The translations under genes were made by a program, and so were the position numbers. This document shows positions 1,229-49,299 of a DNA stretch of 64,000 nucleotides, piece by piece; positions within the stretch are counted from its first letter, which is position 1; every line of letters begins with the position of its first letter. The notes below the pieces were generated by a model that ran no database searches, had not been told where the DNA came from, and worked only from the letters and a program-made list of their open reading frames with translations. The stretch covers positions 124,001 to 188,000 of the forward strand of contig LSRY02000022.1 of assembly GCA_001643675.2 (NCBI GenBank). Reading direction: 5' to 3'. The stretch is from Monocercomonoides exilis PA203. Its lineage: Eukaryota; Protista; Preaxostyla.

Positions 1229-2812
<1,584 letters not shown>

Positions 2813-4370: not shown

Positions 4371-4568
4371 CACCATCACCATCACCATCACCATCACCAT
4401 CACCATCACCATCACCATCACCATCACCATCACCATCACCATCACCATCACCATCACCATCACCATCACCATCACCATCACCATCACCATCACCATCACC
4501 ATCACCATCACCATCACCATCACCATCACCATCACCATCACCATCACCATCACCATCACCATCACCAT
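4371..4568. repeat. (CACCAT)33 microsatellite
   Basis: Perfect hexamer tandem array. It explains the poly-H, SP and MV ORFs in the track. Confidence 0.95.
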
Positions 4569-12600: not shown

Positions 12601-14506
12601 AATAGTCACAAGGTTGTAAACTGTCAGTCCAAGATATCAAGAAAGATATTATCTTCGTCTGCTGCTTTTAAATGTTAAAAGTCCAACATCTTATGAGTAT
12701 GAGAAAACATACGACAACCACATTCATAACACTTTCAAGGAAGCCGCAGCATCCAGAGGTTTATTGTCAGAAGATTTAAACTGGGACAAATGTTTGGAAG
12801 AAGTTTCCTCAGTTGGATCGCCAAATCAACTCCGAAAGGTATTAACACAAATTCTGCTGTTCAACAATGTTGTGAATCCAGAGGTATTGTGGAAGAAATT
12901 CAAAAAGAATATGTCCGAAGATTATTTGATGAAAGGAGATGAAGAAAATTCCGCTTATACAAAAGCTTACTACGATATATACTTTAAATTTCGTTCCGAA
13001 AATAATAATCTTGAAGATCTGATATCTGCCCCTCCCAGACCTATACCCATAAAATGCATTGATGATTTATCGCAAGATGATCACATGTTTCTTGCTTCAA
13101 GAAATATTCCTTTGTTAAATGAAAAACAAAAGGAGGCGTTTGAGAGTATCAAAGAAAGCATCCTGAGTTCATCCCGAGGTTCAACAGTATGCAATTGTCA
13201 TTTTTTGGATGGACCCGGTGGAAGCGGAAAAACTTTTCTATATAATGTTATTTACCATTATTTGTCTGCTCATTCAGTTGTATGTCAATGTGTTGCTTGG
13301 ACTGGGATTGCTGCCACTTTGCTTCCAAAAGGGAAAACTGTTCACTCTCTTTTTCGTCTTCCTGTGCCCATTGAGGAACATAATGCAATTTCTCTAATGG
13401 AACTGAATTCAGAAAAAGCCCAATCATTAAGAAAAGTGAAATGTGTTATTTGGGATGAGGCACCAATGGCACCGAAATATGCATTAACTGCTATCAATAT
13501 TCTTCTTCAAGATCTACATGAGAACAAGGATTTTTTTGGAGGAGTTTTGATGGTTTTGGGAGGAGATTTTAGGCAACTTCCACCGGTTGTGAGAGGTGGA
13601 GGAAGGCAAGAAATGATTTCTTGCAGTATCAAAAGTTGTGATCTATGGAGTTCGTTTCAGGTCCATTCCCTATTAACAAACATGCGAACAGGAGCAGATG
13701 CAGCATTTGCTAGCTTTCTCAGAAAAGTTGGTGATGGTGATATATCGATCATGGATGAAAACAAAAAAATTGATGTTCCACGGTGGAGAATAAATGAGGA
13801 TCAACTTATTCAATGCGTGTTCGGAAACAAATTCAACGACATGGAAGAAATAAAAATGATGAAAGATCGTTGTATATTATGCACAAAAAACGATGACACA
13901 TTTGAAGTGAATAGTCAAATACTAGATCTTATTAATACAGAATCAAGAACTTACACCAGTGCAGATTCAGCAGAGTTTGAAGATCCCAATGACGATTACA
14001 CATCATTTAGTATTGAATATCTTAATTCACTGACTCCTTCTGGATTGCCACCGCACCAGCTTCGTTTAAAGGTTGGAGCAATTGTTATTCTTCTCAGAAA
14101 TTTGGACCTCGCAAATGGCCTTTGCAACGGAACAAGGCTAATAGTGGAGCAGCTGGGGAAGCAGTGTATTCGATGCAATTCAATTTCGTATTCATTTGAT
14201 AAAAATTCTTCTGTAATTCTTGCTCCAATACTGACAACAGCCAGAGACAGGACTCCGCCATTTTGTCTCAAACGCCTGCAGATCCAGGTTCGGGTTTCTT
14301 TTGCTATGACCATTAACAAAGCGCAAGGGCAATCTTTTTCGCACGTTGGGTTGTATCTTCCAAACCCAGTTTATTCTCATGGTCAACTGTATGTTTCCAT
14401 GAGCAGATGTCATTACAGCAAAAATTTATTTATTGCTCTCCCTCAGAAGAGAAAATATAAACAAAACAAGGTTGTTAACATTGTATATAATGAATTAATT
14501 CAATAA
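9625..14506 (+). pseudogene. Helitron Rep-helicase (HUH endonuclease + PIF1-like SF1 helicase), decayed
   Basis: N-terminal AT-hooks (GRP, RGRGRP) after ATG 9625, likely intron 9723-9773, Zn motif CYICGALHF…CC. Rep motifs FMTFTCNPKW, GLPHCHLLL (HUH), KYFYKYVYKG. Helicase motifs GPGGSGKT, WDEAPM, GDFRQLPPV, FAMTINKAQGQS, HGQLYVSMSR. In-frame TGA/TAG/TAA stops and frameshifting near 11.0 kb. Confidence 0.95.
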
Positions 14507-21702: not shown

Positions 21703-24700
21703 TTACATTAAAAGCAATGCGTTGAGAGTGTTAAATGAAAGAGAGTGTCTGTTGTCTCCAGTTATTCTTTTCATCCTCGAGAAAATTCGTTCACAGCTTG
21801 CTTCGCTGCACGGTGATGAAACAAAAGAAAAACAAATATTCGAATATATGGTGTGATTGAAACTTTTCTTTGATAAGTTCATATAATAGATTTGAGCATT
21901 ATCTTCAATAACAGAACTTGGCGATGCACTCAGCTCACTTTGGTATATCTTCAGACATAATTCTTTCAGCTTATGATCTTCTTTGAATAAAACTGAATTT
22001 ATTAATATTTCAAACCTTCGCTCCATCCTATTGCTCCAATCTGACGTGATGCAAGAAGAAATGTTGAGGCACATTTCGTCTTCTTTGTCAGTCGAATGTG
22101 GTGAGATGATATCGAAAACTTTGCTTGCAAAAAGCAATTCAACTTCATCATCTTCCGATTCAATTGCAACATCTGAAGATTCATTCGTGTCTGAAAATGA
22201 GTCAGATAATCTTGATGATGATGTTAAAAAAGATGATGAACAAGACGAAGATAATGATGGAGATCTTGTGACTGAATCAAAAATATTAGCTGCTTGAAAA
22301 TCAGGATCATTCATATCTTTTTCTGCCAATAAAATTCCAAGAGAATCTTCTTCTAAATCATCCGATTCGTTTTCAAATTCTTCTTTTGTCTTTGGTTCTT
22401 CTGGCTGTGGCGCTTCACCCCTTTCGACAGTATCTGCAATTCGAAGGAGTTTGATGATTTCTGCACAGACGTCATCAAGTTTCTTATCTTTTAACATATC
22501 ATCAAAGCAATTGAGGTTCTGAGACATTGTGAAAAAGCTGACCTGTTCATCTCTAACAGATGAATGAAACCTTTCCAAAGCAAGATTGAAACTATCATTT
22601 GATAAATAGTAATTATGTGTCATAGAAAATGGAGAGAAAGTATTAATTTGAAAAGGAGAAGAAATATCACTAAGTTGATTTTTATCCAAACTGGAAGAAG
22701 AACAATTGGATAAATTTGATTGCAATGAAGATGAAAAAGAAGAATTTGTTGAGTTGAAAAAATCTGAGTGTGATGAAATATCCCTTGGTCCAAAAAACGA
22801 GGAAGATCTCATTTGAACTAGTCTGTTGTCTTCATTTAAATGACCTTGTTGAAGAATTGTTATTTCCGAATTAGAATGCTCACTGATTGAATGGAAAAGA
22901 TTATCTGTTCCTCCTTTTGAATCCAACTTTTCTATCACGTGTTTTGCTTCAATAAATGAATTTGTTAATTTATTTCTAATGAACTTTTGCATTCCAACTA
23001 GTGTTAAAGCGTGTGCCAGTGATATCATTTCACCTGTTTTTCCAAATAAAAAATGGTTATGCATCAGAACAAGAATATTGGTAATTGCATTTTGCCAATT
23101 TGAAGATCTGAATCTTTGGAAGCATTTGATTCCATATAAAATTCCAATTGTTTGAAGGATCATGGGGAAAATTTCACCAAGTTTTGTGTGATCGTTTTCC
23201 AAAAAAAGTTGTAGCCTGTGAATAGGAAATAACAATAATTCCATCAATACAGAATTTAACACTTTATCTGTGGAAAGCAAAGAATGTTTTAAAATTGCCT
23301 CGCTGTTTTTCCTGATAAATGAGCAAATTGGGAACAAACAAAGCCATCTCGTATGAACAAATGAAGGACATTTTTGCTTTAGTAACTTTCTGATTGCCGA
23401 AGAATGGGCATATTTTGCAAAAAATGTTAGATCATTCAATATTTGGGGCAAAATATTTCACTTCAGGCATTTTCATTGAAAAATTATGCATTTTTCATTA
23501 ACTTTTTGAGTTCAAAAAACACAAAAAAATTGGGTACATTTTTTGACATTCGAGAAATGCTGGAAAACATTATGTTTTAATTTCAACGATGCCTGTTTAC
23601 AGATCTGAAAATATAGTTTAATTTGAAATCTGAGAAAGAGAAATAAAGTTATGAGTGAAACAATTTTTCAATGCTATGTGCATAAAATGCTTGAAAGTCA
23701 ATATTTTCCCCCATTTGTCAAAGAAAATCAATTTTTGTGAAAGCTTTTGTAATAACTATATTTAAAAGATGGTAAGAACAATAAATAGAAAATGGAGCAA
23801 CTTTAATTTTGGATAGCAAAGACTCTTCATATTCTTCAAGTGATGTGAAGTTTTCCAGAGCTTTTTTCTGAGGTTTTAAACCATCTGAACAGAAACACCT
23901 AACACTTGCATGTAATGACTCCAATTCTTTTATTATGATCCAGGCTAATTTTCTATAATGACTAGCATTGAAACAAGGAGGATAAACTTTCCAAAAAAAG
24001 TTGTAGTTTCTAGTGACAGAGGAGCAATTGTTACAACGGTGCATTTTTGTCCTCCAACTATTCCGCCATCCATCAAAACGCAAATGCATTTTCCGTATAA
24101 TTCTTTCGCCCTCTTTTCTTTTGCGACTTCACTTTGAGAAATAATCAAGCTGCTTGGTTTTCTACTTGTTAAATATGGGAATATTTTTGTAGGATGTTTG
24201 TCTGGATTATCTTGAGAAATTTTTATTAAGGAAGTTATGAAATTGTTAAATTCTTTCAATGATGCAGAAGCTATGAAAATGTTGCAGTGACTCACAATTT
24301 GCGCAAAAAGAAATTCCAAATTAGTGCTTGTGTTGTTAACTGAATTATCAAATTTTTTGGTTGGATCATCACGATTTTTAATCACAGAAGAGAATTGTTT
24401 GAAACTTGTGATGTTTTGTGTTAATAAAATTGAACAATGATAATTTTTGATTTCAGCATAATTTTTCCTTCAGCTGACACCACAAACTGCATCTCCTCTT
24501 GCATTTGGACAAAGGAATTGTTTGTGATATTCCCTAACTGGCGATCCGCATTCGTTTGATGGGATGAAAGATATCCATAATTTTTCGTGAACAACTTCCA
24601 ATGTAACTTTTGTTAAAAACTCTTTTTCTTTAACAGGATGTTTGTAGACTTTGAATAATTTTTATTGTATATCAAAATAAAAGATATTCACAAGCAAACA

Positions 24701-24923: not shown

Positions 24924-26187
24924 GACGTTTTTGACTGAGACAAAAAATGATCAACAAGTCACTGACTTGGAAATAACCTAATTGTTGATCTGGTCATTTC
25001 CCATCATTAACAAAATATACAAATTTATTTTTTTCATGAAGTTATGATTTGTTTATTTGGAATTCATTAAAACTATATGATTGAAAAATTTTCTATTTGG
25101 GTGATTATTTTTGATATCATATTTTTTCTTTCAATAATCTCGGTCAGAAAATTTCTGTTGAATGTCAAAAAAAGGAGACTGAAAAATGAAAAGACCAATT
25201 AAAAACGTCTTTATCTTTATTTCAGATATAGCATTTGTTTTGACAGCAGTTGTGATAATTTAACAATTCAAACGCAAAGTCTCTTAACAATGACAAACAA
25301 CGTTTGAAAAATCGATACCCCGAAAAAAGTTATGATTACAAAAATAATCACACATTTGAAAGAAATATATTTCATATCAAAAATAGAAAAAAAAATGCTT
25401 TGACCTGAATAAAAGAAAAAGTCAGTCAGAATGGTAATTTTTATTGTTAAAAGTCAGTAAGTCACAAAGGCTTATTTTCTGCAATTCATCTTCCAAAAAT
25501 TTTTATTTGAAAAAATGTTTGTAAAATTTTATTTTTCACAATATATGTGATTTTTTTTTAAAAAGTCGCAAATGTTTAATTATCAAATAAATCAAAAATT
25601 TCATATATTGTTCAAATTTCGGTTGCCGCTCATGTTACTTCACAGGAATGTGAGAGATATGGTATATCAGCTATGGATCCATCTCGATTAAGATCAATCA
25701 AATATATCGATTTATGAATATCTGATTGTAGTCGTCATCTTGTATAATAAGTTGAATAGGCAATGATAATAAGATAGAGATCGAGAGTTATTGCTGATAT
25801 ACTTAGGTGTTATCATGATTCAATATTCAGTGATGTTCTATAAAGAAGGAGTCATTGATAGGTGTAATCGATATGTATCTATTGCTGATATACAATATCT
25901 CCACGGAGGAGATTAGCTAAAAGATAAACTGGAAGATTAACTAAATTTATGTTGAAGTTGGTATATTAATGGTGAAATTGTGTGAAAATTGGTGTTTTCG
26001 TTGATGAAATACATGAGTTGAACATGAGTTGAACATGTGTCGAACGTTGATGTTATCGTTGATGGAAATAACAGATGGAATTATGTCAAAGATGGTAAAT
26101 TAGTGGTGAATTTGTGTGACAATTGGTGTTATCGTTGGTGTGATCTTAAATAAAAATAATTGATTTTGTTTTTTTGTTTTATCGTAA

Positions 26188-26439
26188 ATGGGTCGGAAGA
26201 AGATATACGCAACTGTGGAGGAAGCGAAAGAGGCTCAACAGAAACAAATTAAACAGTTTCAGGAAAAACGTAAGGAAGAAACTAAGTATTACAACGAACA
26301 TGTAACTGAGAAACAGAAGAAGTTGATAAAGATATTGAGGAGAAAGGTTATCGAAAGTGATGAGTTGTTAGATGAGTTGATGGAAAAAGTTAGTGGTTAT
26401 TGCCTGAACAAGCTTGATTGGGACAAATGTGTTAATTGA
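26188..26439 (+). CDS. Small basic helical protein encoded in the left TIR (83 aa), possibly DNA-binding
   Basis: Intact ATG ORF MGRKKIYATVEEAKEAQQKQIKQFQEKRK… with protein-like composition after an AT-rich leader. Confidence 0.6.
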   Translation: MGRKKIYATVEEAKEAQQKQIKQFQEKRKEETKYYNEHVTEKQKKLIKILRRKVIESDELLDELMEKVSGYCLNKLDWDKCVN

Positions 26440-27369
26440 TGAAACACAACAAGTGGAACACGTTTGTTGTATCGTTGATTGTTAAGAACAGTGTCCACGG
26501 TGGAGTTGTGGTGGATTGCCAACATCTATATTTTTGATTGGAAAAAGTGCCAATCGGTAGTCAGGATACCAAATTGTGGCAATATCGAGATGCTTGGGGA
26601 TGGGAAATGTTGAGTTAAATCTCCGAGCTGGAAGCGTAGTCCGGTAGTCCGGTAGTCCGGATCTTTTAAGTTCATCTGAAAAGAGCTGCCAACATGCCAT
26701 TTCTGCCAACATGAGCAATCAACCCCTAATTTACCATGATTTTGAGGGTTTTTATTTATTTTCGATCATGTTGTCATTCTGCCACATTGCCACATGGAAT
26801 CGTCGGTGGTATATAATAAGTGACACACATCAGTTGTATCGTCAGTTGTTAAGAACAGTTGTCACCTGCACCGGGTTGATGGTGAAGGTCATGTGGGTGA
26901 TGATGTGGCATGGAGATATTAACTAAAATCTCCGAGCTTTTCACCTGCACTGGGTACACCGGGTGCACCGGGTCAAATATATTCTATAAATTATGTGGGC
27001 AAACGGGCAAACGGGGCAAATGGGCAAAATACATTTAATGTGAAAAAATTGATGAAATATAACAGACTACACATCAGTTGTTCCATCAGTGGCACACAAG
27101 TTGTGTATTCAATTCAGGAAGTAATTTTTAACTTTTGATAGCACAAGTTACTTGTTCCAGCTTGTGCCGATATGATTTTCAGGGAAATATCGTTTATTTT
27201 GCATTAAAATCAGTGAAAAATTAGTGAAAATCATGTGAAATTCACCACAAAACCGCAAATTGTCGGCACACGCGGCACAGCACAAGTTACCGTTGGGGTC
27301 ACCGTTACCCAAACCGATTTTTGTCCTGCCTGCTTTTTGTTTATTATAAAAAATATATTTGTTTCAATT

Positions 27370-29835
27370 ATTAGTTTTCGTTGATGTTTGATTCGATGAA
27401 ATTGTCGATGTATATTAAACGTCTCCTCACACCGTCTGAACACATTACGGGGTTAGTGTCAGCGGAGTATTTTGTCTTTAATCTATCGTTGAATGTACCG
27501 ATTTTGTTCATTGATGAAGGAAATTTATTTGTGAGCAATAGAGTGTGTAATTTTTGTATAAATCGATTGCCTTGTAACCAATTTTATCGTCGCATTTTCT
27601 CCTAAATCCTAAGTCAATGTTGTTAGCATCGTTAATGAATTCATCTTACCACGCGTCGAATGAATCTTCGTACGATTGCTGTATCCTGTTAAAGAACTCT
27701 GGCATCTCGAACCTTGTGTATGGCTTGAATGTGGTTTTTTCAGCTATTTTGTCAGACTCCCTGATATATTTGACATAAGAATTAACAAAGTTTTCATCCG
27801 TTAAGTATACATTCCATAATTTGTTCCACATTTCAACAGAATCTTCTCTCGGTGACAGTATTCGTTCGATTGGATATAAACGTCTCTGAACTGCTTTGTC
27901 TGAGCAAATGCCTGCAAATGATGAATTGTTTGTCGAAAAATCACAGTCGAAATACAGGGTGATATTTTCATCGTATCTCGCCATTGATCTTGTTGATAGC
28001 ATGTCATTATCTAGTATTTTGAAGTCTTCGACAATAACTTCACCATCTTTTATTCGTGGAAGTTCGTCGAATTGTATCTGTAATTTGTTCGCTAGCAAAG
28101 ATTTCGTTTGTTCTTTACCCAATTGACTAAACCTAACATTCACGGAGGAGAATTCATTCCCATAAACCTTTGTCCTTAATGTTGTCAGAAATCCTTTTCC
28201 TCCACATCCTTCAGCACAATATCAACCAAGTGAAATCTTCGTTCTCTTGTAGTTGTTTCTGAATTGCCATTGATCGCGATTAAGGTCAAAGATGAATGTT
28301 GTTTCATCTGTGTATGTTGTTTTGAGAAAAACAAACATCTCTTCAACTTCTTGCTTCATGTCAATTTTTGGTTCTCTCATTCGGAATGTTGTGAAAACGT
28401 TTGGTTTATCGATAACAGGTGCAACTTCATCATGAACTTTGAGTTCAAAAAAATGCTCAACAAACAAGCTTTTGAGAGTGACAGTCTCACCACCTGAACC
28501 TTTTCTGATTATATATCGTTTCATTTGTTGTTCAAACCATTCTTCATCTCTGACATAATATTGGTCTTTTCTAACTCACGCAATAACATCTGTTGTCTCA
28601 CTAATTGCTGCAAATTTGTGAAGGATATTAGTGACAAGTTCAGCTTTCGACATGTTTTTCGCATTTTTTACCAGATTATTGTAAGTCTCAGTGCATGATT
28701 CGTAGTCGATAGTCACTTTAAGATACTTCTCTTTATAATTACTAGCAACTGATGCGTCTAACAGTTTCAACAAGCTGAAAAACCATTTGTTTGTCATTTC
28801 TTGTTTGCAATTCCTGCTTATCATGTCAATAACCACATCATCCACACCATTCATGTGGATACCTTTTCTGTACCATTTACAAAAGCATTCTGTCAGAAAT
28901 TCTTCTGAATAAGGACTAAACCTTAGAGGCCCTAACGTGTACATTAGATTATCGAATGTCGGTTCGAAGTTGTCCAGAAATTCGTTCATTTCATCAGACG
29001 TGAACAGAATTAAATCGTGATAATCATTAACTGTCCCGTAATCGTTGACCTGCTCGGTTTTTTGTTTATCTTTCTTCTTATCGTTAATCTCTAACGAAAA
29101 TATCACACTCCATTCACTAGCAGTCACAATTTTCTCATTACCTCTCGTCTGAATTATTTGAGTAGATGGTGGTAAATCGCCCAGTATAACTCCGTGGTTA
29201 AGTTTATTTCTTTCATCATCTTTCTTGTATATTTTATCTGATATAACATGTCTAAACAGTTGTCTGGATGAATATCCCATTTTGCTCGACACCAGTTTGT
29301 ACACTTTTGGATCACACAGCTTATGAACACCTTTCGTCGAATAACCTTTCTTGTCTGTATGTTTCATTATTTTCACCAAATCAATCGTTGATATCCGAGT
29401 AGTGTAGAAAACCACATGCATTGACAAGAAGTGATTACCATCTGGATAATACCTGAAACCATACTGTTCATTCATATGTTCATCGTTTGTGTATCCACCA
29501 ACACTATATTCACCGAAAACAATGCTAACATTCGTCAACCATTTCATAATGTCTTGATATTCAGCTTCATTCGTTATGCTGTCAAAGTCAAAGTACAAAT
29601 GGACATGCTCTTCACTAGTCAAGAATTCGATGAAACCGTCAGTGAAATCATAACTATCTACATCGGCAAATGGAATAGTTAATGGTTTCCAATAATTTGG
29701 CTTCATCATTATAGACCCATATTTAATCAAATTGTTGTCGAACTTTCGGACAATATCATTTAACAAATCATCAACTTCATTATCAACTGCAACACTATCA
29801 ATAACATCATCGTTTTCACTTATGGTTAATGTCAA
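27370..29835 (-). pseudogene. Archaeo-eukaryotic primase (PrimPol-like) fused to a D5-like SF3 helicase
   Basis: ORFs 28576-29835, 28222-28524 and 27646-28143 are in the same frame, separated by TGA at 28576 and 28222. AEP motifs HLYFDFD (DxD), LSMHVVF (SxH), CDPKVY. SF3 motifs AEGCGGKGF (Walker A), QFDEL (Walker B), STNN (motif C), VQRRL (Arg finger). Reading past TAA 27646 gives LYKNYTLYC, like the D5 C-terminal domain, then a frameshift near 27528. Confidence 0.8.
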
Positions 29836-30913
29836 ATTTGCAAACAGCGAATAATTTGGTTGGCTTGTTTTTCAGATTTGTTACTTTAAACAAATTAAAA
29901 AATCAAATTTTTTTTATAAAACAGATTTATTATTGAAACGTTAATTTACGGGGAAGACGAAGGGTGAGGTTAATGTCGAACATTTACGGGGAATAGTTAA
30001 TTTCCACATTAAACAAAAAGCAGGCAGGACAAAAATCGGTTTGGGTAACGGTGACCCCAACGGTAACTTGTGCTGTGCCGCGTGTGCCGACAATTTGCGG
30101 TTTTGTGGTGAATTTCACATGATTTTCACTAATTTTTCACTGATTTTAATGCAAAATAAACGATATTTCCCTGAAAATCATATCGGCACAAGCTGGAACA
30201 AGTAACTTGTGCTATCAAAAGTTAAAAATTACTTCCTGAATTGAATACACAACTTGTGTGCCACTGATGGAACAACTGATGTGTAGTCTGTTATATTTCA
30301 TCAATTTTTTCACATTAAATGTATTTTGCCCATTTGCCCCGTTTGCCCGTTTGCCCACATAATTTATAGAATATATTTGACCCGGTGCACCCGGTGTACC
30401 CAGTGCAGGTGAAAAGCTCGGAGATTTTAGTTAATATCTCCATGCCACATCATCACCCACATGACCTTCACCATCAACCCGGTGCAGGTGACAACTGTTC
30501 TTAACAACTGACGATACAACTGATGTGTGTCACTTATTATATACCACCGACGATTCCATGTGGCAATGTGGCAGAATGACAACATGATCGAAAATAAATA
30601 AAAACCCTCAAAATCATGGTAAATTAGGGGTTGATTGCTCATGTTGGCAGAAATGGCATGTTGGCAGCTCTTTTCAGATGAACTTAAAAGATCCGGACTA
30701 CCGGACTACCGGACTACGCTTCCAGCTCGGAGATTTAACTCAACATTTCCCATCCCCAAGCATCTCGATATTGCCACAATTTGGTATCCTGACTACCGAT
30801 TGGCACTTTTTCCAATCAAAAATATAGATGTTGGCAATCCACCACAACTCCACCGTGGACACTGTTCTTAACAATCAACGATACAACAAACGTGTTCCAC
30901 TTGTTGTGTTTCA

Positions 30914-31165
30914 TCAATTAACACATTTGTCCCAATCAAGCTTGTTCAGGCAATAACCACTAACTTTTTCCATCAACTCATCTAACAACTCATCACTTTC
31001 GATAACCTTTCTCCTCAATATCTTTATCAACTTCTTCTGTTTCTCAGTTACATGTTCGTTGTAATACTTAGTTTCTTCCTTACGTTTTTCCTGAAACTGT
31101 TTAATTTGTTTCTGTTGAGCCTCTTTCGCTTCCTCCACAGTTGCGTATATCTTCTTCCGACCCAT
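30914..31165 (-). CDS. Identical copy of the 83-aa protein in the right TIR
   Basis: Mirror of 26188-26439 with identical translation. Confidence 0.6.
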   Translation of the reverse strand: MGRKKIYATVEEAKEAQQKQIKQFQEKRKEETKYYNEHVTEKQKKLIKILRRKVIESDELLDELMEKVSGYCLNKLDWDKCVN

Positions 31166-33709
31166 TTACGATAAAACAAAAAAACAAAATCAATTATTTT
31201 TATTTAAGATCACACCAACGATAACACCAATTGTCACACAAATTCACCACTAATTTACCATCTTTGACATAATTCCATCTGTTATTTCCATCAACGATAA
31301 CATCAACGTTCGACACATGTTCAACTCATGTTCAACTCATGTATTTCATCAACGAAAACACCAATTTTCACACAATTTCACCATTAATATACCAACTTCA
31401 ACATAAATTTAGTTAATCTTCCAGTTTATCTTTTAGCTAATCTCCTCCGTGGAGATATTGTATATCAGCAATAGATACATATCGATTACACCTATCAATG
31501 ACTCCTTCTTTATAGAACATCACTGAATATTGAATCATGATAACACCTAAGTATATCAGCAATAACTCTCGATCTCTATCTTATTATCATTGCCTATTCA
31601 ACTTATTATACAAGATGACGACTACAATCAGATATTCATAAATCGATATATTTGATTGATCTTAATCGAGATGGATCTGCAGATGATATGCCATATCTTT
31701 CATGATTGCATTATTATTTATTGTTAATCATCACAAATGAAATATTGAAATTCCAAATGTTTCAATATGTTCAATTCATGCTGTCAATAATACAAATTTG
31801 AAACGCAAAAGTTAACACTTTTTGCATAAATAAATTAAAATCAAATATTCATATTCAAGCATATGTTACAGACGAAAATGTTTTTGTCACGTCCGTCAGC
31901 AATTGAAAAATTACGTCAGTATCAGTTATCATAATAATATCATTTCAAGAAATAGTTTCACAATTTCCTTTTTCAAAAATAAAATTTGTTCATGGGAAGA
32001 AAAATGTGTTATAAATTAAAAAAACTTTGATTTAAAAAATGGAATGATGAAAATATATTTAACTTTCTTTTCCTAGCATTCTTCTTTCTTTATATTTAAC
32101 TGGAGGCTTATTAAGAATAAACAATAAAACAAACACATTTTTAGAAATTTTTTTTCTATATTTAAACCACAAGCAAACCCAAAATAATGGATGATCACGT
32201 TTTTGCATGAAGCTTTTTTCTCATAAAAAAAGGGAGAGAGAGAAAGAAAGAGAATGAAAGAAAGAAAGTGGGATAAGGAGTGAATTTTTTATCAAAAAAA
32301 GTCAATTAACAATTAGGAAATATGTGGTATAAAATCATTTAAATTCGTATCTAATGTGGGTGATTTTTTTAGAAATCATAAAAAAAGATCAAAAATTTAA
32401 AAAAGTAATATTTATTGTGGTATTTATTGATCGAAGAGTTTAATTGATTTTCTTCAAGTATTTAGCGTTTATTTCTGTTATATATATTAGTTTTATTTAT
32501 TAAAACAAAAATACATACCTTTTTGATGTTTTTGTGGAAAAGAATTTTTTTGATCAAGTGAAATTAAAATGAACAAAAAATTAATAAATAAAGCTTCAAA
32601 AAGAAAATGTTTATTTTATAACAGAAAAATCAAAACATTGAAAATAAAAAAAAAAATGAAGAAGAACAGAAAAGAAGATAAGAAAACAAAATTATGAAAC
32701 CAATTTATAAATAATAGTTATTTCTCTTTTTTCTTTTCGTCTTTGAATAGCTAACAAATCCCCATTCTATTTATTCCATTCATAGGATTCATCTTACGAA
32801 AACAGATTTAGTGGCACATCAGATAAATCTGGGTTCAACAGCTTTCTCCCCCTCATTGCCCAGAATAACATTGATTTCAGAAGTGGAATTGAAGCTTATG
32901 CCTTTGGTAGACCCCAACAGACCCCATGCGCCACCATCGAGTATGCCCTCACTGGCTTCATTTCCCTCCTCCAAGACGCCTCTCTCACCCTCCTCACCTC
33001 AGCATTTGTTCCTCTTCAAACACTCACTTTCAGCGCTGCTGACACAAACACAACAGGAAATAATGACTTTTTTCTGATTTCTATATTATTCCTTCCATTT
33101 TCTTATTTTCACCATTTTCCATGTCATAGAAAAATATTTGAGATTTCATACCATTTTTAACAAGAACATATATCATCGCCAATTTATTCATAGAGCCTAA
33201 AATCAGCCCAGATAAAGATATTTCTCCGAAATTTCCTTTTAGTTTCTCTTTTTCATCAAATGCAAATTCTGTTGTTGCTTAAAGGAATCATCTATTTCAT
33301 CTCTTCAAAATGAATATATGCAAATAGGAAGGCTTTTCTTAAATATCTGTTTCCTCAGCTTTCCAATACAATTTGTCTATCTGCAGTTCGTTCCATTTTT
33401 TTATGGAATTGCACTTCAAATATTGATTTTCCATAAATAGGTTTACTCCTCATTATTTCATCTTCCGCAACTTTTTGAAGGCGCACGTTGTTGTGAAATC
33501 TCTCTTAAACTATCCCTGCAACTGTTTGTTCAAAGAAAAATTTCCCCGCCTTGTTCTTTCTGTTTCCATAAATTCTTTCAATCTCAAAATGAAAAAGTAA
33601 GAATCGATTTTCTTGTTGATTTCGTGCCTTCTGATCATCTTTTCTTGGTTTAATATAGTTCTCTCATTTTCATATAACTTCAGCTGGCATTCTATGTTAG
33701 AATAAATAA

Positions 33710-36270: not shown

Positions 36271-38509
36271 CGAATATCTCGTACAGGAACAATAATTTAT
36301 TCATCGTCTCATCTGAAACTTTCACAGGAGATTGCAGTTATGCAACGCAAATTTCCCCGTTTTCCTGTATGTGGTTTTTTTATAAATGAGTTCCCATATT
36401 TGCATCCAACACGCTCCATAAGAGGAGTTGTCGACTTATAATGCGAGACAAGAAGAGCAGTAGCATTGCCTCTCATCCAACACAAACATCTATTGATGCT
36501 TCAAAGTGGATAATCGTTTGTTCCTCCAGAAGTAGAATTGGTAGCTCCACTTAAGTTAATGTTGACTTCTGCAGGTTACACACATAAAGGGGCAAATCTC
36601 AAATTTGAAGAACACAAGCCCAGCAGCGGTAGTGCAAAGTTTGGAAAGACAGAAAGAGACAACTTTATTTATTTAGGAGCAAGTAACAGACGTGAAAGTG
36701 ATTTATTATGATGGACAGAATAGAGCGATCTGTTTATTGATGTTCCTTCAGCAGGAGGAGAACATGAAAGAAGAAGAAGAACGTTGCGATGATTTGGAAG
36801 ATGTTGAAGATCTGTTATAGAATGTGATGTGCGAACATTTTGCAGCTTTGGTTGTCGTTGCGATGAAGTCCATGAAGGAGATGCCATTAAAAGAGATTGT
36901 TAGATGCAAGAGAGCATTTAGTAAGAGCTAATACGAAGTATCGATACCAAATGGAGCTGTTGAGAGGAAGAGGAGAAGGAGATCTGAAGGTTCATAAAGA
37001 AGAAATATTCTCAAAATATAATTGGCGGTGAAGCAGAAGAGGAGGTCTCTTGTTAGAAATATGAAAGGATGTTTGCTGAGAATGAAGGGCGCTTAATTGA
37101 CTCAATCATGGAAGCATCAAAGCGGGTTGCGGATGACTGATCTCAGAAAGGAGAAGAAGAACAAGGCGATGATGAAGAAGAGAGTTAATTTCGAGTAGCT
37201 TAGGAGGAGATGAAGCCAGTGTGAGCGGGGAGGACGCAGTCAGCTGTGACACTGAAATAGCAGTGGTAGCAGATAGGGTGTGGGAGATAACTCCTTGTTC
37301 AGTCTTTTTTATCTGTTCTGTTTCCAATGGCAATAAAAACGCTGGAAAGAGCATATGGAAAAGACACATCACCCAAACTTAAAAGAATAGGTTGAATGAA
37401 ATAAAAACATGAAAAGGGATGGTTCATATTTTTTTGAATTAATTGATTGAATAAATAAAAATTAGAGTTTGAATCAGTTAAAAAAAGAAAAATAAGAAAT
37501 ATGATTAAAACAATTGTAACAATTATCGAAAAATAGTGCAAACCTTTTCAAATGAAAAATTGCTCTTTCATCACTTCTTGCACGAAACTTTTTGGTTGTT
37601 GATTGAGAGAGTCCAAACAGCTGGAAAGATCAAGCGCATCAATGATTTCAATGCAGATACAGTTCAGACAGGCAATTCGATGCATGTTGCCAATATACAA
37701 ATTCATAAAATGGCCGTTGCGATCAACTCACGAGCAAAAGAGGAAGTTCATAATGAATAATGAAAAAAAAGTTCTAAAAATTACAAAAATGAAAAAAAAA
37801 TATATATATTTAAAAATAAATACACAAAAATTATTTGTAATGATTAAAAGAAAATTTTTACACACTCCATTGCTTCAAATCTTCACCATTGCATAAGACG
37901 ATCTGTTTGAAATTTTTTTCTTTTCTTTAATCAAGCTCAAAATATTTTGCATTTCTTCTTTTCTGTTTTCCTGACCTCCCTCTCCTTCGAGAATCCAGGT
38001 AATCTTGAATGAAAAAAACGGCGAGATATAATCTAGTTGACAGACGAGTTGAGCAAAAATGCAAACAGTATATGAAAAGCTCACTATTTCTAATTATTTT
38101 AAAATTATTCTTATTTGGCGAAACTTCGTCCGTCATGTTCAGTTTTAAAAATGTTAAAAATAAAAAAATAATGGGTGAGATCATTGATTTCATTTGCATC
38201 TTTCTGTTTCTCCACATATAGCTTTCAAATATTGATAAATTCTGCTGTTTGTGTGTTTATTAATGTTGTTTATTTGTTTTTATCAATCTTTATTGAAAAT
38301 ATTTTGTTTTTAGTTGCTTAATTTCGATCGTTCACTTAATCACTTTCACTTTTGCTCGAAACAAAAAGGTGAAGAAATTGGCATCACGGAAGTGTGATAA
38401 CTTATTAAATATTATTAACTTTTATTCATTTTGAAATTTAAATACTCGATATTACGTTTTTTTATTTAAAATTCAATATTTTTAACTTTAGTGTTACGCC
38501 ATATCTAAG

Positions 38510-39265
38510 ATGATGCGAAAATTTGAACAAACGAAAGAATTAATCAAAGAAATGAATAAAAAAGAATTCAAATCTTTTTTTTCATTTGAACTGTTCGACA
38601 AAATTCACAAAATGATTGAAGAAGACAAATTATCGATTGGAAATGCCATTCCACTGCTGAAGCATATGAGATATTGCAATGAGCTGAAAGGAATTTGGAT
38701 CAGGGGCTTTGAAGAATCTTCGTTGAACAAAAGATTTGAGGAAATGATGGCTGAGGAAAATGAGAAAAAAGATGAAAAGAACGAGAAGTTTTTGGTTGAT
38801 TTTTGCGAATGTTTTGCTTTGCTTAATTTCTCCATCTTTTCAGATGAAATGATACCAATTTGTGTGCCTTGCTTTCTGAAAGTGGCATTGAAGAAAGAGG
38901 AAAATGAGGAAATACAAAAAGAAGTTGAAATGGCGTTACTGAGTTTGTGCAATATAGGATGGAAAATGTGAGATTTTTTATTTTATTTTTGAAATTATTA
39001 ATTATTTGCTTCTGAATTTTATTAGAAAGTGCCAAAAGAACTGTACTTGAATGAGATCAAAGAGATAATGCAATATCACCAGGAACATTACAATGTGACG
39101 CATCTTGTTCATCAATCTGTTTGGGAGTTGGTGATAAATGGATTCTATCAAAAAGGAAGCATAGAAGAAGTTACAGTTAATGAGCTGAATTTTGTGAGAA
39201 AAGCATCAAGAAAACATGAAGATCAGTTGAAGTGTGAAAATAGGAATAAGTTAAAAGAGAATTAA
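38510..39265 (+). pseudogene. Fragment of a multicopy helical host gene family within the left Merlin TIR
   Basis: ORFs 38510-38971 and 39029-39265 are separated by a GT…AG intron-like gap. The motif CVPCFLKVALKKEENEEIQKEVEMALL is recalled from an expanded oxymonad family. Confidence 0.6.
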
Positions 39266-39277
39266 CAAAAAATAGTC

Positions 39278-39409
39278 AGGAAGCAGCAGAAGCAGCTGAG
39301 AAGATGAAGGAAGCAGCAGAAGCAGCTGAGAAGATGAAGGAAGCAGCAGAAGCAGCTGAGAAGAAGAAGGAAGCAGCAGAAGCAGCTGAGAAGAAGAAGG
39401 AAGCAGCAG
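39278..39409. repeat. 30-bp tandem repeat (~4.4 copies) at the inner edge of the Merlin left arm
   Basis: Unit AGGAAGCAGCAGAAGCAGCTGAGAAGA(T/A)GA. Only ~1.4 copies occur in the right arm (41052-41092). Confidence 0.9.
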
Positions 39410-39806
39410 TAGTTAAAGTATTATTTAGGAATGATGATTCAGAAATTGCAGCATAAATGATGCAAAATATCATATTTTGTTATAATTTTGATGAATTGTC
39501 AAATTTTAAGCTTCATTTATTTGTTATGACTGTTTCATTATTTAGAGATTGAAAAATTGAGTATGATATTTATTTTATTGTAATTAATATATCCTATTGT
39601 TGATTTGATTTTTTATTGTTAGTGTTAAATGAAAGCTTATTTTATAATATAAAATGAACTTCATATTTGTCAAATCTCATTTTATTAAATAATCAGTGGA
39701 ATGAAAAATATAAATTAAAAACAATTGAGAAAAATATTCACATTCTTTTAAAATCAAAATTTACAAAAATGTGTAAAAACTTAATGAATGAGTTACAAGG
39801 GCTTCT

Positions 39807-40633
39807 TTAAAATGTGAAAACATTTAAATAATCTTGCATATATTTTTGTCTAACACCGTATAAAGGAAGATATTTTCTAAGAAGGCTCCAAGTGCTTTCT
39901 ATTCTTTGTGTATGCGCTTTTGTAATAGGATCCACAAATCTTTTTTTGTGATTGACGGTTAAATGCGTATATCCAGCTCCATTTAAATTATTATATCCCC
40001 TCCAACAATCCGTGTATATTTTGGTTTTTTCCTTCACATTACTTTTGATTGTTCGATGTAATATTTCTCTTGATCTTTTCAAAACAGGAATTAAAAATAG
40101 ATTGGATTTTTGACCCTTTTTTTAGGACGTTCAATTCCTCCAATGATCCAATTTTGCCTTTTTGTTCTTCCTCTATTATATTTTCTTTTTGGAAAAATTG
40201 CTTCATCAATTTCCACTTCAGTTCCTTTTCCTCCAATAATTCGCGGATGATCCATGTAAAATTTTGATATGCACTTTCGGAAAGAATCACAAGCATGCAT
40301 CATAGAAATGTTTGACTTTCCACAAATGAAGCTGCAATGTGTCTGAGAAATGCCGACCCAAAAACATAAAGCCATCAAACAGATATTACAAATTTTGAAT
40401 CTGAATTTTTCAAAATTTGTATTTTTTGAAATTTTAACTTGTTTATGTTTGCAACGAAAGCGACTTGTTTCATTTTCATATACGTAGATTTTCATATTCT
40501 TTTGGCATTTCCAACAATAGCGGTCTTTTTCCAAGATCTTATGATCCAAAAGCCAATCAATTGTTTCTTTTTCTGATCTAAATATTTGAAACAATTTTTT
40601 AAACTGTTTTTGATTTTCTGCTTTGGTTGGCAT
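39807..40633 (-). pseudogene. Merlin/ISXO2-family DDE transposase with one frameshift
   Basis: CWKC Zn ribbon, VEIDE…KRKYNRGR…WIIGGIER, IYTDCWRGY, HLTVNH…HTQRIESTW. One extra T in the T-run at ~40093-40097 would join the two ORFs (IYFLIPVLKRSRE), so this is either a mutation or a homopolymer sequencing error. Confidence 0.9.
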
Positions 40634-41104
40634 GATATTTCAAATAGAGTGTTCAAAATAAATTAATTGAATTATTCAAGTTTAGATCTTCATATTTAAA
40701 AAATTGAGAAATAAAAAGTTTGATCAGTGAAATGAAATCAACAAATAAGATGCTAAAGGCACTTCGATAAAAAATTTTGAGAAATAACGAAAAATTATCT
40801 ATTTCTTGATCAAATAAAGATTAAAAATTATTTGGAATTGAATTTCAAAAATAATTCACAAGTTATGCTTCATAAAGAATAATACACAATGTGCACAACA
40901 AACAACAAATAAAGTTCTAATGAATTTCAACAACATTAACATGATATAAAATTCAACTCAATACATGAATTACACTTTTTAATAATAACAATCATGCTAA
41001 AATTAATAATACACATAAATTCAATGTATTTGTGATGTATCATACAATTTTTGCTGCTTCCTTCATCTTCTCAGCTGCTTCTGCTGCTTCCTGACTATTT
41101 TTTG

Positions 41105-41857
41105 TTAATTCTCTTTTAACTTATTCCTATTTTCACACTTCAACTGATCTTCATGTTTTCTTGATGCTTTTCTCACAAAATTCAGCTCATTAACTGTAAC
41201 TTCTTCTATGCTTCCTTTTTGATAGAATCCATTTATCACCAACTCCCAAACAGATTGATGAACAAGATGCGTCACATTGTAATGTTCCTGGTGATATTGC
41301 ATTATCTCTTTGATCTCATTCAAGTACAGTTCTTTTGGTACTTTCTAATAAAAATCAGAAACAAATAATTAATAATTTCAAAAATAAAATAAAAAATCTC
41401 ACATTTTCCATCCAATATTGCACAAACTCAGCAATGCTATTTCAACTACTGTTTTCTTCTCCTCATTTTCTCCTTTCTTCATAACAACAAACACAACACA
41501 AGGCTCCATTATTAAAAGTAATTTCGAAGAAGTCTCGTTGCTCACCAATCGATGGCATTTGCAAAAATCAAGCAAAAGATTTTCATTCTTTTCTTCTATC
41601 TTCTTATCTTCTTCAATAATAATCTTCTTCAATTTTCTTCACAACAAAAATTCACCAATTTCATCAACACTAATTCCTTTCAGCTCATTGCAATATCCCA
41701 TATGCTTCAGGAGAGGAATGGCATTTCCAATCGATAATTTGTCTTCTTCAATCATTTTGTGAATTTTGTCGAACAGTTCAAATGAAAAAAAAGATTTGAA
41801 TTCTTTTTTATTCATTTCTTTGATTAATTCTTTCGTTTGTTCAAATTTTCGCATCAT
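41105..41857 (-). pseudogene. Mirror copy of the same host-family fragment in the right Merlin TIR
   Basis: ORFs 41639-41857, 41399-41632 and 41105-41323. The ends are near-identical to the left copy and the middle is divergent. Confidence 0.6.
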
Positions 41858-43201
41858 CTTAGATATGGCGTAACACTAAAGTTAAAAATATTGAATTTTA
41901 AATAAAAAAACGTAATATCGAGTATTTAAATTTCAAAATGAATAAAAGTTAATAATATTTAATAAGTTATCACACTTCCGTGATGCCAATTTCTTCACCT
42001 TTTTGTTTCGAGCAAAAGTGAAAGTGATTAAGTGAACGATCGAAATTAAGCAACTAAAAACAAAATATTTTCAATAAAGATTGATAAAAACAAATAAACA
42101 ACATTAATAAACACACAAACAGCAGAATTTATCAATATTTGAAAGCTATATGTGGAGAAACAGAAAGATGCAAATGAAATCAATGATCTCACCCATTATT
42201 TTTTTATTTTTAACATTTTTAAAACTGAACATGACGGACGAAGTTTCGCCAAATAAGAATAATTTTAAAATAATTAGAAATAGTGAGCTTTTCATATACT
42301 GTTTGCATTTTTTCCAACTCGTCTGTCAACTAGATTATATCTCGCCAAAAAAACTAAAATTTACAGAAAATAGCTGTATTCACTTGCTGGTCCACAAAGT
42401 TTGCTGTTCTGGAAGCATCAAGCTTCGCCTCTTCAAATACCTCCTCTTCAAGTGACATGCACTGCGCATGCTCCACAATCACAATCTCATTCGGCCGGAT
42501 GATCTTCTCCTTCTCCAGTGCATCTGCCACACACGATGTCAATTTGAACATATCCAAAGTTGACATGTTTAGCCCTTGGATGAAACCATTGCCTCCTCTT
42601 TCTCCACTGCTTACACCACAATAATCTGAATCAGCAATGTGTGATGGCCTAAATATGACCCCATAAAGCTGCCACATTCTCTTCCATTGTATGTGTATAG
42701 ACTGAAAGGAAAGTGGAACTTGCGAGAGAATTATACAGTGGGGTTTGCATCCGAAAAAGCGTGTCGTTCGTCTCTCGCTTTTCATCCACTAATATTCGTT
42801 AATATTCTCTTCAGAGTTTGTGTTCAACGCATAGAACAAATTGCAATATGTGCCTTGTGCAGCATACGAAATTAATAGCAAGCATTTGACGTTAACGAGT
42901 TGAATCACAAAAAAATACTCATAAAAAAGAATCGCTTTCAGATGCATTTCTGAAAGATGAATTATAATTCTTTCATTTTCACTGATATTCCATCTCGGGC
43001 TGACAAATTATTTATGAAAAAAATCGCATTGGTTGCTATTATTTCAGCTTTTTTAATAAAAATAAAATGAGAATATGGTTCAAATACATTAATTGCTTTG
43101 CGCTTTGCTCACAAAAATATCCACATGAAAATTAATGCATATTTGTTTTTGACACAATAAAATACAAAAAATTATAAATAAATTCCATTTTCCTGAAATT
43201 T

Positions 43202-43569
43202 TGTCAAATTGAACATCTCGATCACAAAAGTGGTCACTAATTTTTCTTCAGATTTTGCGACAAACAGACATAAAAAGATGTGGGGAAGCGGTTTGTGCGG
43301 AAATCTGAGAAAAAATTAGTGACCACTTTTGTGATCGCCAGTCATTTCGAAAAACACTTTTATTAAGGTTCTCATCGGATTTGATCCGTTGAACGATCGG
43401 AACTATTATAAAACTGAAAATTGAAATGACTGGCGATCACAAAAGTGGTCACTAATTTTTTCTCAGATTTCCGCACAAACCGCTTCCCCACATCTTTTTA
43501 TGTCTGTTTGTCGCAAAATCTGAAGAAAAATTAGTGACCACTTTTGTGATCGAGATATTCAATTTGACA
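43202..43569. repeat. 147-bp inverted repeat with 74-bp spacer; each arm holds an inverted pair of a 26-bp motif
   Basis: Arms 43202-43348 and 43423-43569. Motif GATCACAAAAGTGGTCACTAATTTTT at 43220+, 43311-, 43435+, 43526-, 48674+ and 48765-. Confidence 0.9.
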
Positions 43570-44310
43570 TATTTTCATGAAATATTTGCTTTTTGTTGTC
43601 TAATGTGATATTTTTGAAGTTTATTTTGAAATATTATCGATTTTTTTGTTAAATTAATTTTATTGATATTTATATAAGTATATAGCATGTGCATTGATAA
43701 ACTTTTTCGTGAACAAGTGGAAAAATAACAAAGATAAGTGGAAAAATATTCGTTAAAAAATAGCAATCGTTTTGCAGTCAAAATGACATAAATAAACAAA
43801 AAGTACTTCATGATGTCAATCATTAAAAAAATTAAAAACAGTCAGAAATATTCTTATCAGATTCTGCAAATTTCAAGAAAACATAATTCTATCACATAAT
43901 CATATAACTATCACCAAATATCAACAAAACGTCATCAATTTTGAACAATAAAAAATACAAGAAGAAACAGTACTATTTCAACAAATTCGTAGTATCAAAA
44001 ACAATTCCAAACAAAAAAAAATACTAATATTAAAAGTTCAAAAACTAACTTGTCTATTTTCCCTCCGTTTTCCATCCACTCTCCCCTTTCTGATATTTCT
44101 CTAACTTTGACTCAAAAAGATCAAATCCAACAAAGAAAAAAGACAGACACAATGATAAAACATCACTTCACACTCCCAACAACTCTCCCTTCCAAAAACC
44201 TCACCCAAAGATCAATGAATTCCCTCATAACTCTCTCTATTAATGAATCTCGATAAATACAAATATAAGCGGGACAATAACCAATTTAATTATAGGGACA
44301 TTATAGGGAC

Positions 44311-44474
44311 AAAAAGCGCAAGAAAACAATCGGATTCTAACTGTTGTGTACCTGGGAGGCTGTTCGTCGTATCCAGGTCCGGATAAAGCAGCCCGAAGGC
44401 TGCAATATCTAATACGAACAGTCATGTCCAGCACACTTCCGATAGAGTGCTAGCTAAGCATGCACAACAACTAG
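44311..44474 (-). ncRNA. Candidate structured RNA immediately 3' of the USP-transposase gene
   Basis: 12-bp closing stem (44337-44348/44463-44474), 8-bp helix (44360-44367/44414-44421), GCAGCC-UUCG-GGCUGC hairpin (44388-44403), UAUCC/GGAUA hairpin (44370-44385). Loop AUCGGA is complementary to downstream UCCGAU, and a U5 run lies at 44311-44315. Confidence 0.6.
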
Positions 44475-44478
44475 TTTC

Positions 44479-48391: not shown

Positions 48392-49299
48392 AAGTCACAT
48401 TTCTTTTTCGGTGAAAAACACTATGTTTCACACAAAAAAATAAATATTAATGTAATTTATATTTATCAAAATGATGAAATGATATTAGAAACTGATATCA
48501 CAATTAATAGTCTTCAAACAATAATCAATGCAAACATGTTTCTTACAAAAACTAATGAAAATAACATAAGAACAACAAAACATAAACAAATATATATATA
48601 AAAATATATTAATAATGAATAAAACCAAGAAAAACATTGCATTTTCATGAAAAAATGTCAAATTGAACATCTCGATCACAAAAGTGGTCACTAATTTTTT
48701 CTCAGATTTCCGCACAAACCGCTTCCCCACATCTATTTATGTCTATTTGTCGCAAAATCTGAAGAAAAATTAGTGACCACTTTTGTGATCGAGATGTTCA
48801 ATTTGACAAAATTTCAGGAAAATGGAATTTATTTATAATTTTTTGTATTTTATTGTGTCAAAAACAAATATGCATTAATTTTCATGTGGATATTTTTGTG
48901 AGCAAAGCGCAAAGCAATTAATGTATTTGAACCATATTCTCATTTTATTTTTATTAAAAAAGCTGAAATAATAGCAACCAATGCGATTTTTTTCATAAAT
49001 AATTTGTCAGCCCGAGATGGAATATCAGTGAAAATGAAAGAATTATAATTCATCTTTCAGAAATGCATCTGAAACTGTATCTTCTTCATCGAATTTTTAT
49101 TTTTTTATTTCGTTATTATTCTAACATCGTTCATTATTTGTTTTTTTGTTTTTGATATTTTTTTTTTGAAGTTCACATATTTTCCAATTTTAATTTCTTT
49201 TTTCATTTTTCGCCAATATGAACATTTTATCACTTTTTGTTATTTGTTAAATAATCAATTCATCTGACAATTGGACATTATCTATCATGGTTTTAAAAC

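What the first reader, a model, noticed from the sequence alone, without database searches (positions are those of the whole stretch)
25676..31677. Minimal long-TIR replicon-like element: primase-helicase core, no integrase, PolB or capsid
Seen: two 1668-bp inverted arms enclose a single gene with AEP motifs (FDFD, SMH, DPKVY) fused in frame to SF3 helicase motifs (Walker A GCGGKG, Walker B FDE, TNN, RR). Each arm encodes an 83-aa basic protein. Known: AEP-D5 fusions replicate NCLDVs, virophages and some Polinton-like viruses and plasmids. Polintons also carry pPolB, integrase and capsids, while transpovirons and Tlr1 have long TIRs but an SF1 helicase. Inference: this may be an integrated copy of an undescribed small linear plasmid or viral satellite, or a deletion derivative of a larger endogenous virus.
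Basis: partly seen in the sequence, partly recalled or inferred. Interest (0 to 1): 0.88.

Follow-up and report, generated by a model that had tools for sequence, protein, structure and literature searches.

The report
Capsid-less primase-helicase mini-Polinton relic
A 6-kb stretch of DNA, likely from a gut protist, has two identical 1.7-kb mirror-image arms around a broken primase-helicase gene, and is likely a dead copy of a stripped-down Polinton-like virus that lost its capsid and integrase genes and would have needed complete viruses to spread.

Summary
The structure is real: two perfectly complementary 1668-bp arms, each with an 83-aa basic ORF, enclose one AEP-SF3 primase-helicase gene. 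Corrections: the gene is broken (three stops, one frameshift), the ends lie at 25653 and 31700, there is no target-site duplication, and short-read contigs put this copy at chromosomal depth, so it is integrated and dead, not a free plasmid. Both genes trace to Metamonada-type Maverick/Polinton-like viruses: relatives of the primase lie beside an A32 ATPase and an rve-like integrase, and the 83-aa protein resembles a small basic protein that faces the replication gene in 3 such contigs. The arms belong to a family of tens of copies; about three other cores exist, and short contig joints suggest that they too have arms on both sides. Five of seven listed core differences are synonymous. Best reading (0.6): a reduced, helper-dependent, transpoviron-like replicon that spread as a small family; its arms were later homogenised and lengthened by conversion. 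Main rival (0.25): one-off collapse of a full virus. Stand-alone AEP modules are already hypothesised in a 2026 preprint. New variant of a known kind.

The parts
25653..31700 (.). Whole element, 6048 bp; 5' end AGAG, right end the mirror with one mismatch; no target-site duplication
   Evidence: loose ends at 25653 in 12/12/8 contigs; arm alignment; TSD scan
25653..27343 (+). Left arm (perfectly matched part 25676-27343); family TIR probably ends near 27046
   Evidence: joints to 30307, 9-mer positions
30010..31700 (-). Right arm (perfectly matched part 30010-31677)
   Evidence: right end bridged by contigs 31649-32203 and 31649-32386
25654..25901 (.). Terminal fold-back: 37-bp inverted pair 25654-25690 / 25865-25901 (86%); candidate origin or end-recognition site (inferred); mirrored in the right arm
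   Evidence: single-strand DNA fold z = -3.27, 1 of 200 shuffles as good
26188..26439 (+). 83-aa basic ORF of the GRK..YAT.EE small-protein family, converging on the 3' end of the primase-helicase
30914..31165 (-). Identical second copy of the 83-aa ORF
26440..27100 (.). Short repeated modules that vary in number and order among family copies
   Evidence: direct repeats; skip and go-back joints
30010..30306 (-). About 300 bp copied from the spacer 27047-27343 into the right arm (inferred arm extension in this copy)
   Evidence: joints 29957->30307 and 29989->30307 in run X2 only, 20 and 25 letters on the short side; CACATTAAA only at 30005, 30311 and mirrored 27034 in the window
28576..29835 (-). 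AEP primase-polymerase plus helical domain, open for 419 codons from a TTG; 40-52% identical to 26 of 26 relatives tested
27370..28575 (-). SF3 helicase half, broken by stops at 28578, 28224, 27648 and a frameshift near 27520-27530; belongs to another helicase clade than the one fused to the closest AEP relatives
29836..30009 (-). Unique upstream region of the primase-helicase with a twice-repeated 12-mer (29944, 29982)

Best explanation
This is an integrated, broken copy of what is likely a reduced, capsid-less and integrase-less derivative of a Metamonada-type Polinton-like virus, which kept only its terminal inverted repeats, its primase-helicase and one small basic protein, would have copied its own DNA, and likely spread as a small family with the integrase and capsid of complete viruses. 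Shown: the arms, the broken AEP-SF3 gene, the fold, the viral neighbourhood of related genes, other arm and core copies in the same sample, chromosomal depth. Inferred: the SF3 hexamer and AEP primase-polymerase would start replication at the terminal fold-back in the arms; the 83-aa protein would bind DNA; an rve integrase supplied in trans would insert the AG-ended linear DNA. After insertion this copy decayed (stops, frameshift), lost or never shows its target-site duplication (adjacent rearrangement or recombination between two insertions), and its arms were made identical and about 300 bp longer by conversion between the inverted copies.
For: Origin: primase relatives lie beside a Pox_A32 ATPase above the Pfam cut-off (L010) and an integrase-like ORF (L011) linked to rve-matching proteins; helicase relatives lie beside pPolB (L029) and a capsid-like ORF (L031, 67% to the 535-aa ORF of the near-complete Maverick L048). 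The 83-aa protein's two best hits among 485 ORFs are small ORFs of L029 and L031 (E 0.006, 0.022); the reverse profile ranks the two arm copies first among 756 window ORFs (E 0.0015); L048 has a third member. In 3 of 3 these face the 3' end of the replication gene, as in the left arm. Potential helpers: 6 MCP genes are listed for Monocercomonoides exilis (PMC10120064 Table S4), the species named for the only 83-aa homologue found (89%). Family: depth ratio 3.5-4.4 in the core and 18-76 at four arm sites (rough); other copies join the upstream region to the arm and the downstream spacer to the arm (26809->27116 in 4 of 4 runs); a second core runs 86 bases into that spacer. Selection: 5 of 7 listed core differences are synonymous against 0.20 expected (P 0.005). 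Conversion: two neighbouring elements also have long arms with 100% tracts and diverged edges; arm extension and copies without matching TSD are described for Galileo (PMC3573991, passages).
Against: No contig spans another copy, so the shared layout is pieced from joints; the two upstream joints come from 1 of 4 runs with only 20 and 25 letters on the short side, below the tool's 30-letter caution. One X3 contig of the second core has 70 unmatched letters beyond 27258, so that copy may continue differently. The 7 differences are the only core rows shown out of more than 300, and selection could date from life inside a complete virus. None of the fetched relatives shows long inverted arms around a lone primase-helicase (contigs are short and would collapse such arms). 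The link of the 83-aa protein to the viral family is weak in E-value. The 6 MCP genes have not been tied to these arms. No TSD, which an rve-type insertion should leave. The host is inferred, not shown.
Confidence: 0.6

Rival explanations
1. One-off debris: the other cores belong to full-length PLVs; only this copy lost the capsid and integrase block, and its right arm is a later inverted copy of the left.
For: Gene broken, no TSD, left flank is a repeat that does not resume on the right; the left arm plus core alone match the ancestral gene order; primase-helicases next to a TIR are normal in PLVs (PMC11296320, passages and section 9); 6 MCP genes could account for the other cores; decayed primase-helicases also occur in L030 and L033.
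Against: Joints place arm sequence both upstream and downstream of the gene in other copies; only 535 bp lie between terminus and the 83-aa ORF, and contigs of other copies show only small skips there, whereas in L031 and L048 the capsid block lies upstream of this gene.
Confidence: 0.25
2. An independent mobile AEP-SF3 replication module (not a reduced virus) of the kind that is proposed to invade PLVs and replace their replicase.
For: Such modules are proposed in PMC11296320 (section 9) and bioRxiv 10.64898/2026.10.13.758929 (section 13); this protein is a primase/helicase mosaic; L031 and L048 share a gene block but differ in replicase.
Against: The 83-aa protein occurs in viruses with either replicase, so it looks like a virus gene rather than a module gene; the AG end is Polinton-like (recalled); no nuclease or recombinase in the element.
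Confidence: 0.1
3. Assembly or polishing artefact: one arm duplicated or homogenised by software.
For: 1668 bp without a difference around a decayed gene; the outer 1.3 kb cannot be phased with short-read contigs; no listed contig bridges the left end.
Against: Both core ends run into one inner-arm contig at about twice the depth with 0 differences in three runs; the right end with its own terminal letters is bridged; this copy differs from the majority letter of the family at many arm sites, the opposite of what polishing towards the family would give.
Confidence: 0.04

Closest known systems
Metamonada-group Mavericks/Polinton-like viruses (Bellas et al. 2023, PMC10120064; ungrouped in bioRxiv 10.64898/2026.06.19.733378)
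   Same: Long TIRs; primase-helicase replicase; small basic gene facing the replicase; host group
   Different: No MCP, penton, A32 ATPase, integrase or pPolB; 6 kb instead of 15-30 kb; no TSD; two copies of the small gene inside the arms
Transpovirons of mimiviruses (PMC5499653)
   Same: About 6-7 kb, TIRs, no structural genes, proposed to be reduced PLVs
   Different: SF3 helicase fused to an AEP instead of an SF1 (Tlr1-like) helicase fused to a dead pPolB; found in a host chromosome; no free form or giant-virus link shown
[quoted passage not shown]
   Same: Lone AEP-SF3 replicase without integrase, bracketed by repeats; primase/helicase domain shuffling
   Different: Here the repeats are 1.4-1.7 kb TIRs with a defined terminus shared by at least a dozen flanks, carry a virus-type small gene, and the element stands alone in a host chromosome with sister copies
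D5/C962R/NrS-1 primase-helicases
   Same: Fold and domain order (Foldseek E 7e-14 to poxvirus E5/D5, 1e-13 to ASFV C962R, 3e-12 to NrS-1)
   Different: 9-15% identity; the helicase is of a small DUF5906-related clade seen only in unnamed metagenome proteins
Galileo non-autonomous copies with extended TIRs (PMC3573991)
   Same: TIR extension by recruiting internal sequence, variable internal repeats, copies without matching TSD
   Different: Galileo is a P-element transposon; only the arm dynamics are comparable

Membership tests
AEP-SF3 primase-helicase | N-terminal AEP with DxD, SxH and D motifs | tested here: met
   motifs conserved across 34 aligned proteins; model pLDDT 77.8, Foldseek to D5/C962R over the whole chain; no Pfam or PHROGs hit for this half
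AEP-SF3 primase-helicase | C-terminal SF3 helicase (Walker A, B, motif C, Arg finger) | tested here: met
   DUF5906 E 0.016 only, but 20 relatives, aligned motifs and NrS-1 fold match
AEP-SF3 primase-helicase | Intact reading frame | tested here: not met
   three stops and a frameshift, present in contigs with 0 differences
Maverick/Polinton | pPolB and rve integrase | tested here: not met
   no ORF or room for them between the ends
Maverick/Polinton | Long TIRs | tested here: met
Maverick/Polinton | 6-bp target-site duplication (PMC3014272) | tested here: not met
   AATGTG versus CATGAT; no match with shifted ends
Maverick/Polinton | 5'-AG terminus (recalled; the source paper was not held) | tested here: met
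   AGAG at 25653; mirror end has one mismatch
Polinton-like virus | MCP, minor capsid protein, A32 ATPase (PMC5499653) | tested here: not met
   absent from the element; ATPase and capsid-like ORFs present beside relatives
Polinton-like virus | Same termini as capsid-bearing elements of the host | not testable with these tools
   no whole genome held
Transpoviron | About 7 kb, TIRs, no structural genes | tested here: met
   6048 bp
Transpoviron | Tlr1-like SF1 helicase with inactivated pPolB | tested here: not met
   AEP-SF3 instead
Transpoviron | Free linear form carried by a giant virus | tested here: inconclusive
   this copy is at flank depth; contigs of one sample cannot exclude a rare free form
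Eukaryotic linear plasmid | Free multicopy linear DNA with pPolB (recalled) | tested here: not met
   no pPolB; core depth 38-47 versus 37.5 flank in X1, 94-96 versus 83 in X2

The most novel reading that the evidence does not exclude
An oxymonad genome holds a family of transpoviron analogues built on an AEP-SF3 replicase: 6-kb linear replicons (TIR - small basic gene - primase-helicase - TIR) that diversified under selection as self-copying satellites of Metamonada Polinton-like viruses, with tens of shorter arm-bearing dependants. It would be the first host-integrated, multi-copy, end-defined example of the stand-alone AEP-SF3 module so far proposed mostly from gene mosaics.
Probability: 0.35. 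Interest if true: 0.72.

Novelty: new variant of a known kind. Interest (0 to 1): 0.55.

Why it matters
Polinton-like viruses swap replication modules often, and it has been proposed that AEP-SF3 modules move on their own. A family with defined ends, one replicase and no capsid or integrase would make that testable: the terminal fold-back gives a candidate origin, sister copies give a selection test, and the host's capsid-bearing elements give candidate helpers. It would also show that the transpoviron route (virus to capsid-less replicon) was taken twice, with different replicases. If it is one-off debris, it is an ordinary decayed endogenous virus, with a useful reminder that long identical arms need not mean recent activity.

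Tried and rejected
Recoded stops or editing: rejected; the stops are of two kinds, face Y/H and L/F/I rather than one residue in relatives, come with a frameshift that a second copy lacks, and neighbouring hAT and Helitron relics have mixed stops too. Intron at the first stop: not supported; the sequence after it aligns on with helicase relatives; no RNA holder was listed, so expression is untested. Free high-copy plasmid: not supported by depth. Terminal 250 bp as a separate MITE: no many-flank loose end near 25902 among the rows shown (table is cut). Single-sequence fold failed (pLDDT 29.7); the 42-row alignment worked. Word-based search with the helicase half: 0 of 1970 candidates. IMG/VR scans: nothing for the primase alignment, the L010 ATPase or the L048 capsid-like ORF; one weak hit for the helicase in a 42-kb contig (L052, 29%, E 7e-4), not followed. 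Terminal 16-mer in G001 and G002: 2 one-mismatch hits, one inside a gene, taken as chance. The L011 integrase-like ORF, the penton-like and the capsid-like ORFs have no Pfam or PDB-sequence hit of their own; 'capsid' rests on likeness by eye to the Trichomonas MCP rows printed and 'penton' on recall. A helicase tree was not built (script stopped). The protein atlas gave no answer. Four look-ups in earlier findings were empty. Bacterial promoter scan uninformative.
Full report
Observation. The arms 25676-27343 and 30010-31677 are complementary without a mismatch over 1668 bp. Each has the same 83-aa ORF. The open part begins at a TTG; a lost ATG is my inference from the alignment. No whole genome was held.

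Reality and ends. Four runs of one sample hold the stretch; they may be the source of the assembly, so they test the assembly, not the distribution. Contigs with no differences cover most of the core, including the stops, at depth 38-47 (X1) and 94-96 (X2), against 37.5 and 83 for the unique right flank: an integrated single copy. Core contigs end 30 bases inside each arm and the inner arm forms one contig at about twice that depth in X1, X3 and X4, as expected for a true inverted repeat. Loose ends with unlike flanks pile up at 25653 in 12, 12 and 8 contigs of X1, X2 and X3, so the family terminus is 25653 (AGAG) and its mirror 31700. The outer 23 bp differ at 6 places between the arms, and there is no TSD. 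The left flank is a host repeat that continues in other copies but not at the right end here, so the two ends do not bracket one clean empty site. The first 250 bp can fold back on a 37-bp inverted pair (z -3.27, 1 of 200 shuffles).

Host. The 377-aa product is held by NCBI, UniRef and EukProt, and the only homologue found for the 83-aa protein (1 of 3 candidates) is a Monocercomonoides exilis protein at 89%. The host is therefore likely that oxymonad or a close relative. The window is a graveyard of Helitron, hAT and other elements.

The replicase. Forty relatives of 454-1068 aa were found among 4334 candidates, mostly matching the N-terminal half; cluster members include Tritrichomonas musculus fragments. 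A model from a 42-row alignment (pLDDT 77.8) matches poxvirus D5/E5, ASFV C962R and NrS-1. The protein is a mosaic: a profile of 27 relatives scores the primase half at 481 bits and the helicase half at -5; by BLAST the primase half is 40-52% identical to 26 of 26 relatives, the helicase half hits none of them below E 0.4. Its own relatives are 20 unnamed or hypothetical proteins, up to 50% identical, some fused to other primases. Such shuffling is described as common (bioRxiv 10.64898/2026.10.13.758929, passages).

Where the genes come from. Scans gave 9 metagenome and 3 genome-bin loci and more contigs in two bins, which I read as mis-binned protist virus DNA. L010 has the full gene with a Pox_A32 ATPase; L011 has it with an integrase-like ORF linked to rve-matching proteins; L005, L007 and L008 have HNH genes. 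L029 (helicase part only) carries pPolB; L031 (helicase end at a contig edge) carries an ORF 67% identical to the 535-aa ORF of L048, a near-complete Maverick with pPolB, A32 ATPase and rve. That ORF resembles by eye the Trichomonas MCP rows of PMC10120064; I could not fold it. The 83-aa protein's best two hits among 485 ORFs from 19 loci are small ORFs in L029 and L031 (E 0.006, 0.022), the reverse search ranks it first among 756 window ORFs (E 0.0015), and L048 has a third (1 of 197 ORFs). All three face the 3' end of the replicase, as the left-arm copy does; in L031 and L048 the capsid block lies upstream of this gene, where the element has only 535 bp to its end. Both genes thus point to Metamonada-type Maverick/PLV. 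Table S4 of PMC10120064 lists 6 MCP genes for M. exilis.

One copy or a family. Summed contig depth over baseline is 18-76 at four arm sites and 3.5-4.4 at one core site; the tool warns that this is no copy number, so read it as tens of arms and about four cores. Other cores are about 87% and 97% identical, and one differs in length by one base at the frameshift. Joints bear on layout: in X2 only, two contigs join the unique upstream region (29957, 29989) to the arm at 30307 with 20 and 25 letters on the short side; that region has no match over 11 bp in the arm, and a 9-mer occurs in the 64 kb only at 30005, 30311 and mirrored 27034. This fits a family TIR of about 1.39 kb, lengthened by 300 bp in this copy. 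On the other side, 26809->27116 (4 of 4 runs) joins the downstream spacer to the arm, and a second core runs 86 bases into the spacer, though one X3 contig then has 70 unmatched letters. Five of the 7 core differences shown are synonymous (expected 0.20, P 0.005); 3 of 6 in the small ORF (P 0.07); more than 300 rows were not shown. None of the fetched relatives shows long arms around a lone replicase.

Why identical arms around a dead gene. The copy differs from the family majority at many arm sites yet its arms match, so they were homogenised after the damage began. Two neighbouring elements show the same pattern of 100% tracts and diverged edges, and Galileo copies with extended TIRs and unmatched TSDs are a precedent (PMC3573991, passages). 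Arm identity is therefore no sign of recent activity.

Mechanism. Shown: anatomy, fold, decay, kinship of genes, sister sequences. Inferred: self-replication from the arms by the AEP-SF3 protein (the role proposed for IR-adjacent primase-helicases in PMC11296320, passages and section 9 part 1), DNA binding by the basic protein, insertion and packaging by helper viruses. I give 0.6 to a reduced helper-dependent family, 0.25 to one-off debris, 0.1 to an independent module, 0.04 to artefact.

Comparison and novelty. It works like a transpoviron but fails the SF1-helicase test; it derives from PLVs but fails the capsid, integrase and TSD tests. Nine full-text searches found no description of such an element in oxymonads; subscription papers are mostly not searched. 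The idea of stand-alone AEP modules, with one contig example, is in the 2026 preprint (section 13; figures and supplements not seen). Other papers were seen as passages only: PMC10120064 (plus supplement rows), PMC5499653, PMC3014272, PMC6431247, PMC11414722, PMC2836005, bioRxiv 10.64898/2026.06.19.733378 (84), bioRxiv 10.1101/2024.03.23.586382 (92). The AG terminus of Polintons and the labels penton and Merlin are recalled. Verdict: new variant of a known kind, interest 0.55.

Noticed in passing
window 38020-42346: Element with GGCGAG termini and the same 8 bp (AAAAAAAC) on both flanks, Merlin-like by recall; its 1.3-kb inverted arms carry host gene-family sequence and are a patchwork of 100% and 60-70% tracts.
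   Followed up: partly
window 42909-49102: 430-bp inverted arms (97%, outer ~30 bp diverged) around a 553-aa transposase-like ORF without a clear Pfam family and a UCH protease fragment (E 2e-7).
   Followed up: partly
window 9742-14506: Helitron relic (Helitron_like_N, PIF1) broken by in-frame stops.
   Followed up: no
window 6194-9043 and 21703-24469: Two hAT transposase relics with stops or frameshifts; a high-copy repeat begins at 23444 within the second.
   Followed up: no
window 25094-25652: Very high-depth host repeats directly left of the element; the element's left end lies inside one of them.
   Followed up: partly
L030 (G002:C22) 1-8316: MULE transposase and a decayed primase-helicase between inverted tandem arrays at both contig ends: a Mutator that seems to carry a PLV gene relic.
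   Followed up: no
L010, L011, L029, L031, L046-L051: Two bacterial genome bins (G001, G002) hold many Maverick/PLV-like contigs, probably mis-binned protist virus DNA; one such primase-helicase is named as a Brachyspira protein.
   Followed up: partly
L031 versus L048: Same gene block (capsid-like ORF, two conserved ORFs, small basic ORF) next to a primase-helicase in one and pPolB in the other: a replicase swap within one virus group.
   Followed up: partly
window 43189-43582 and 60474-60926: Near-perfect hairpins of 190-205 bp arms with 16-43 bp loops.
   Followed up: no
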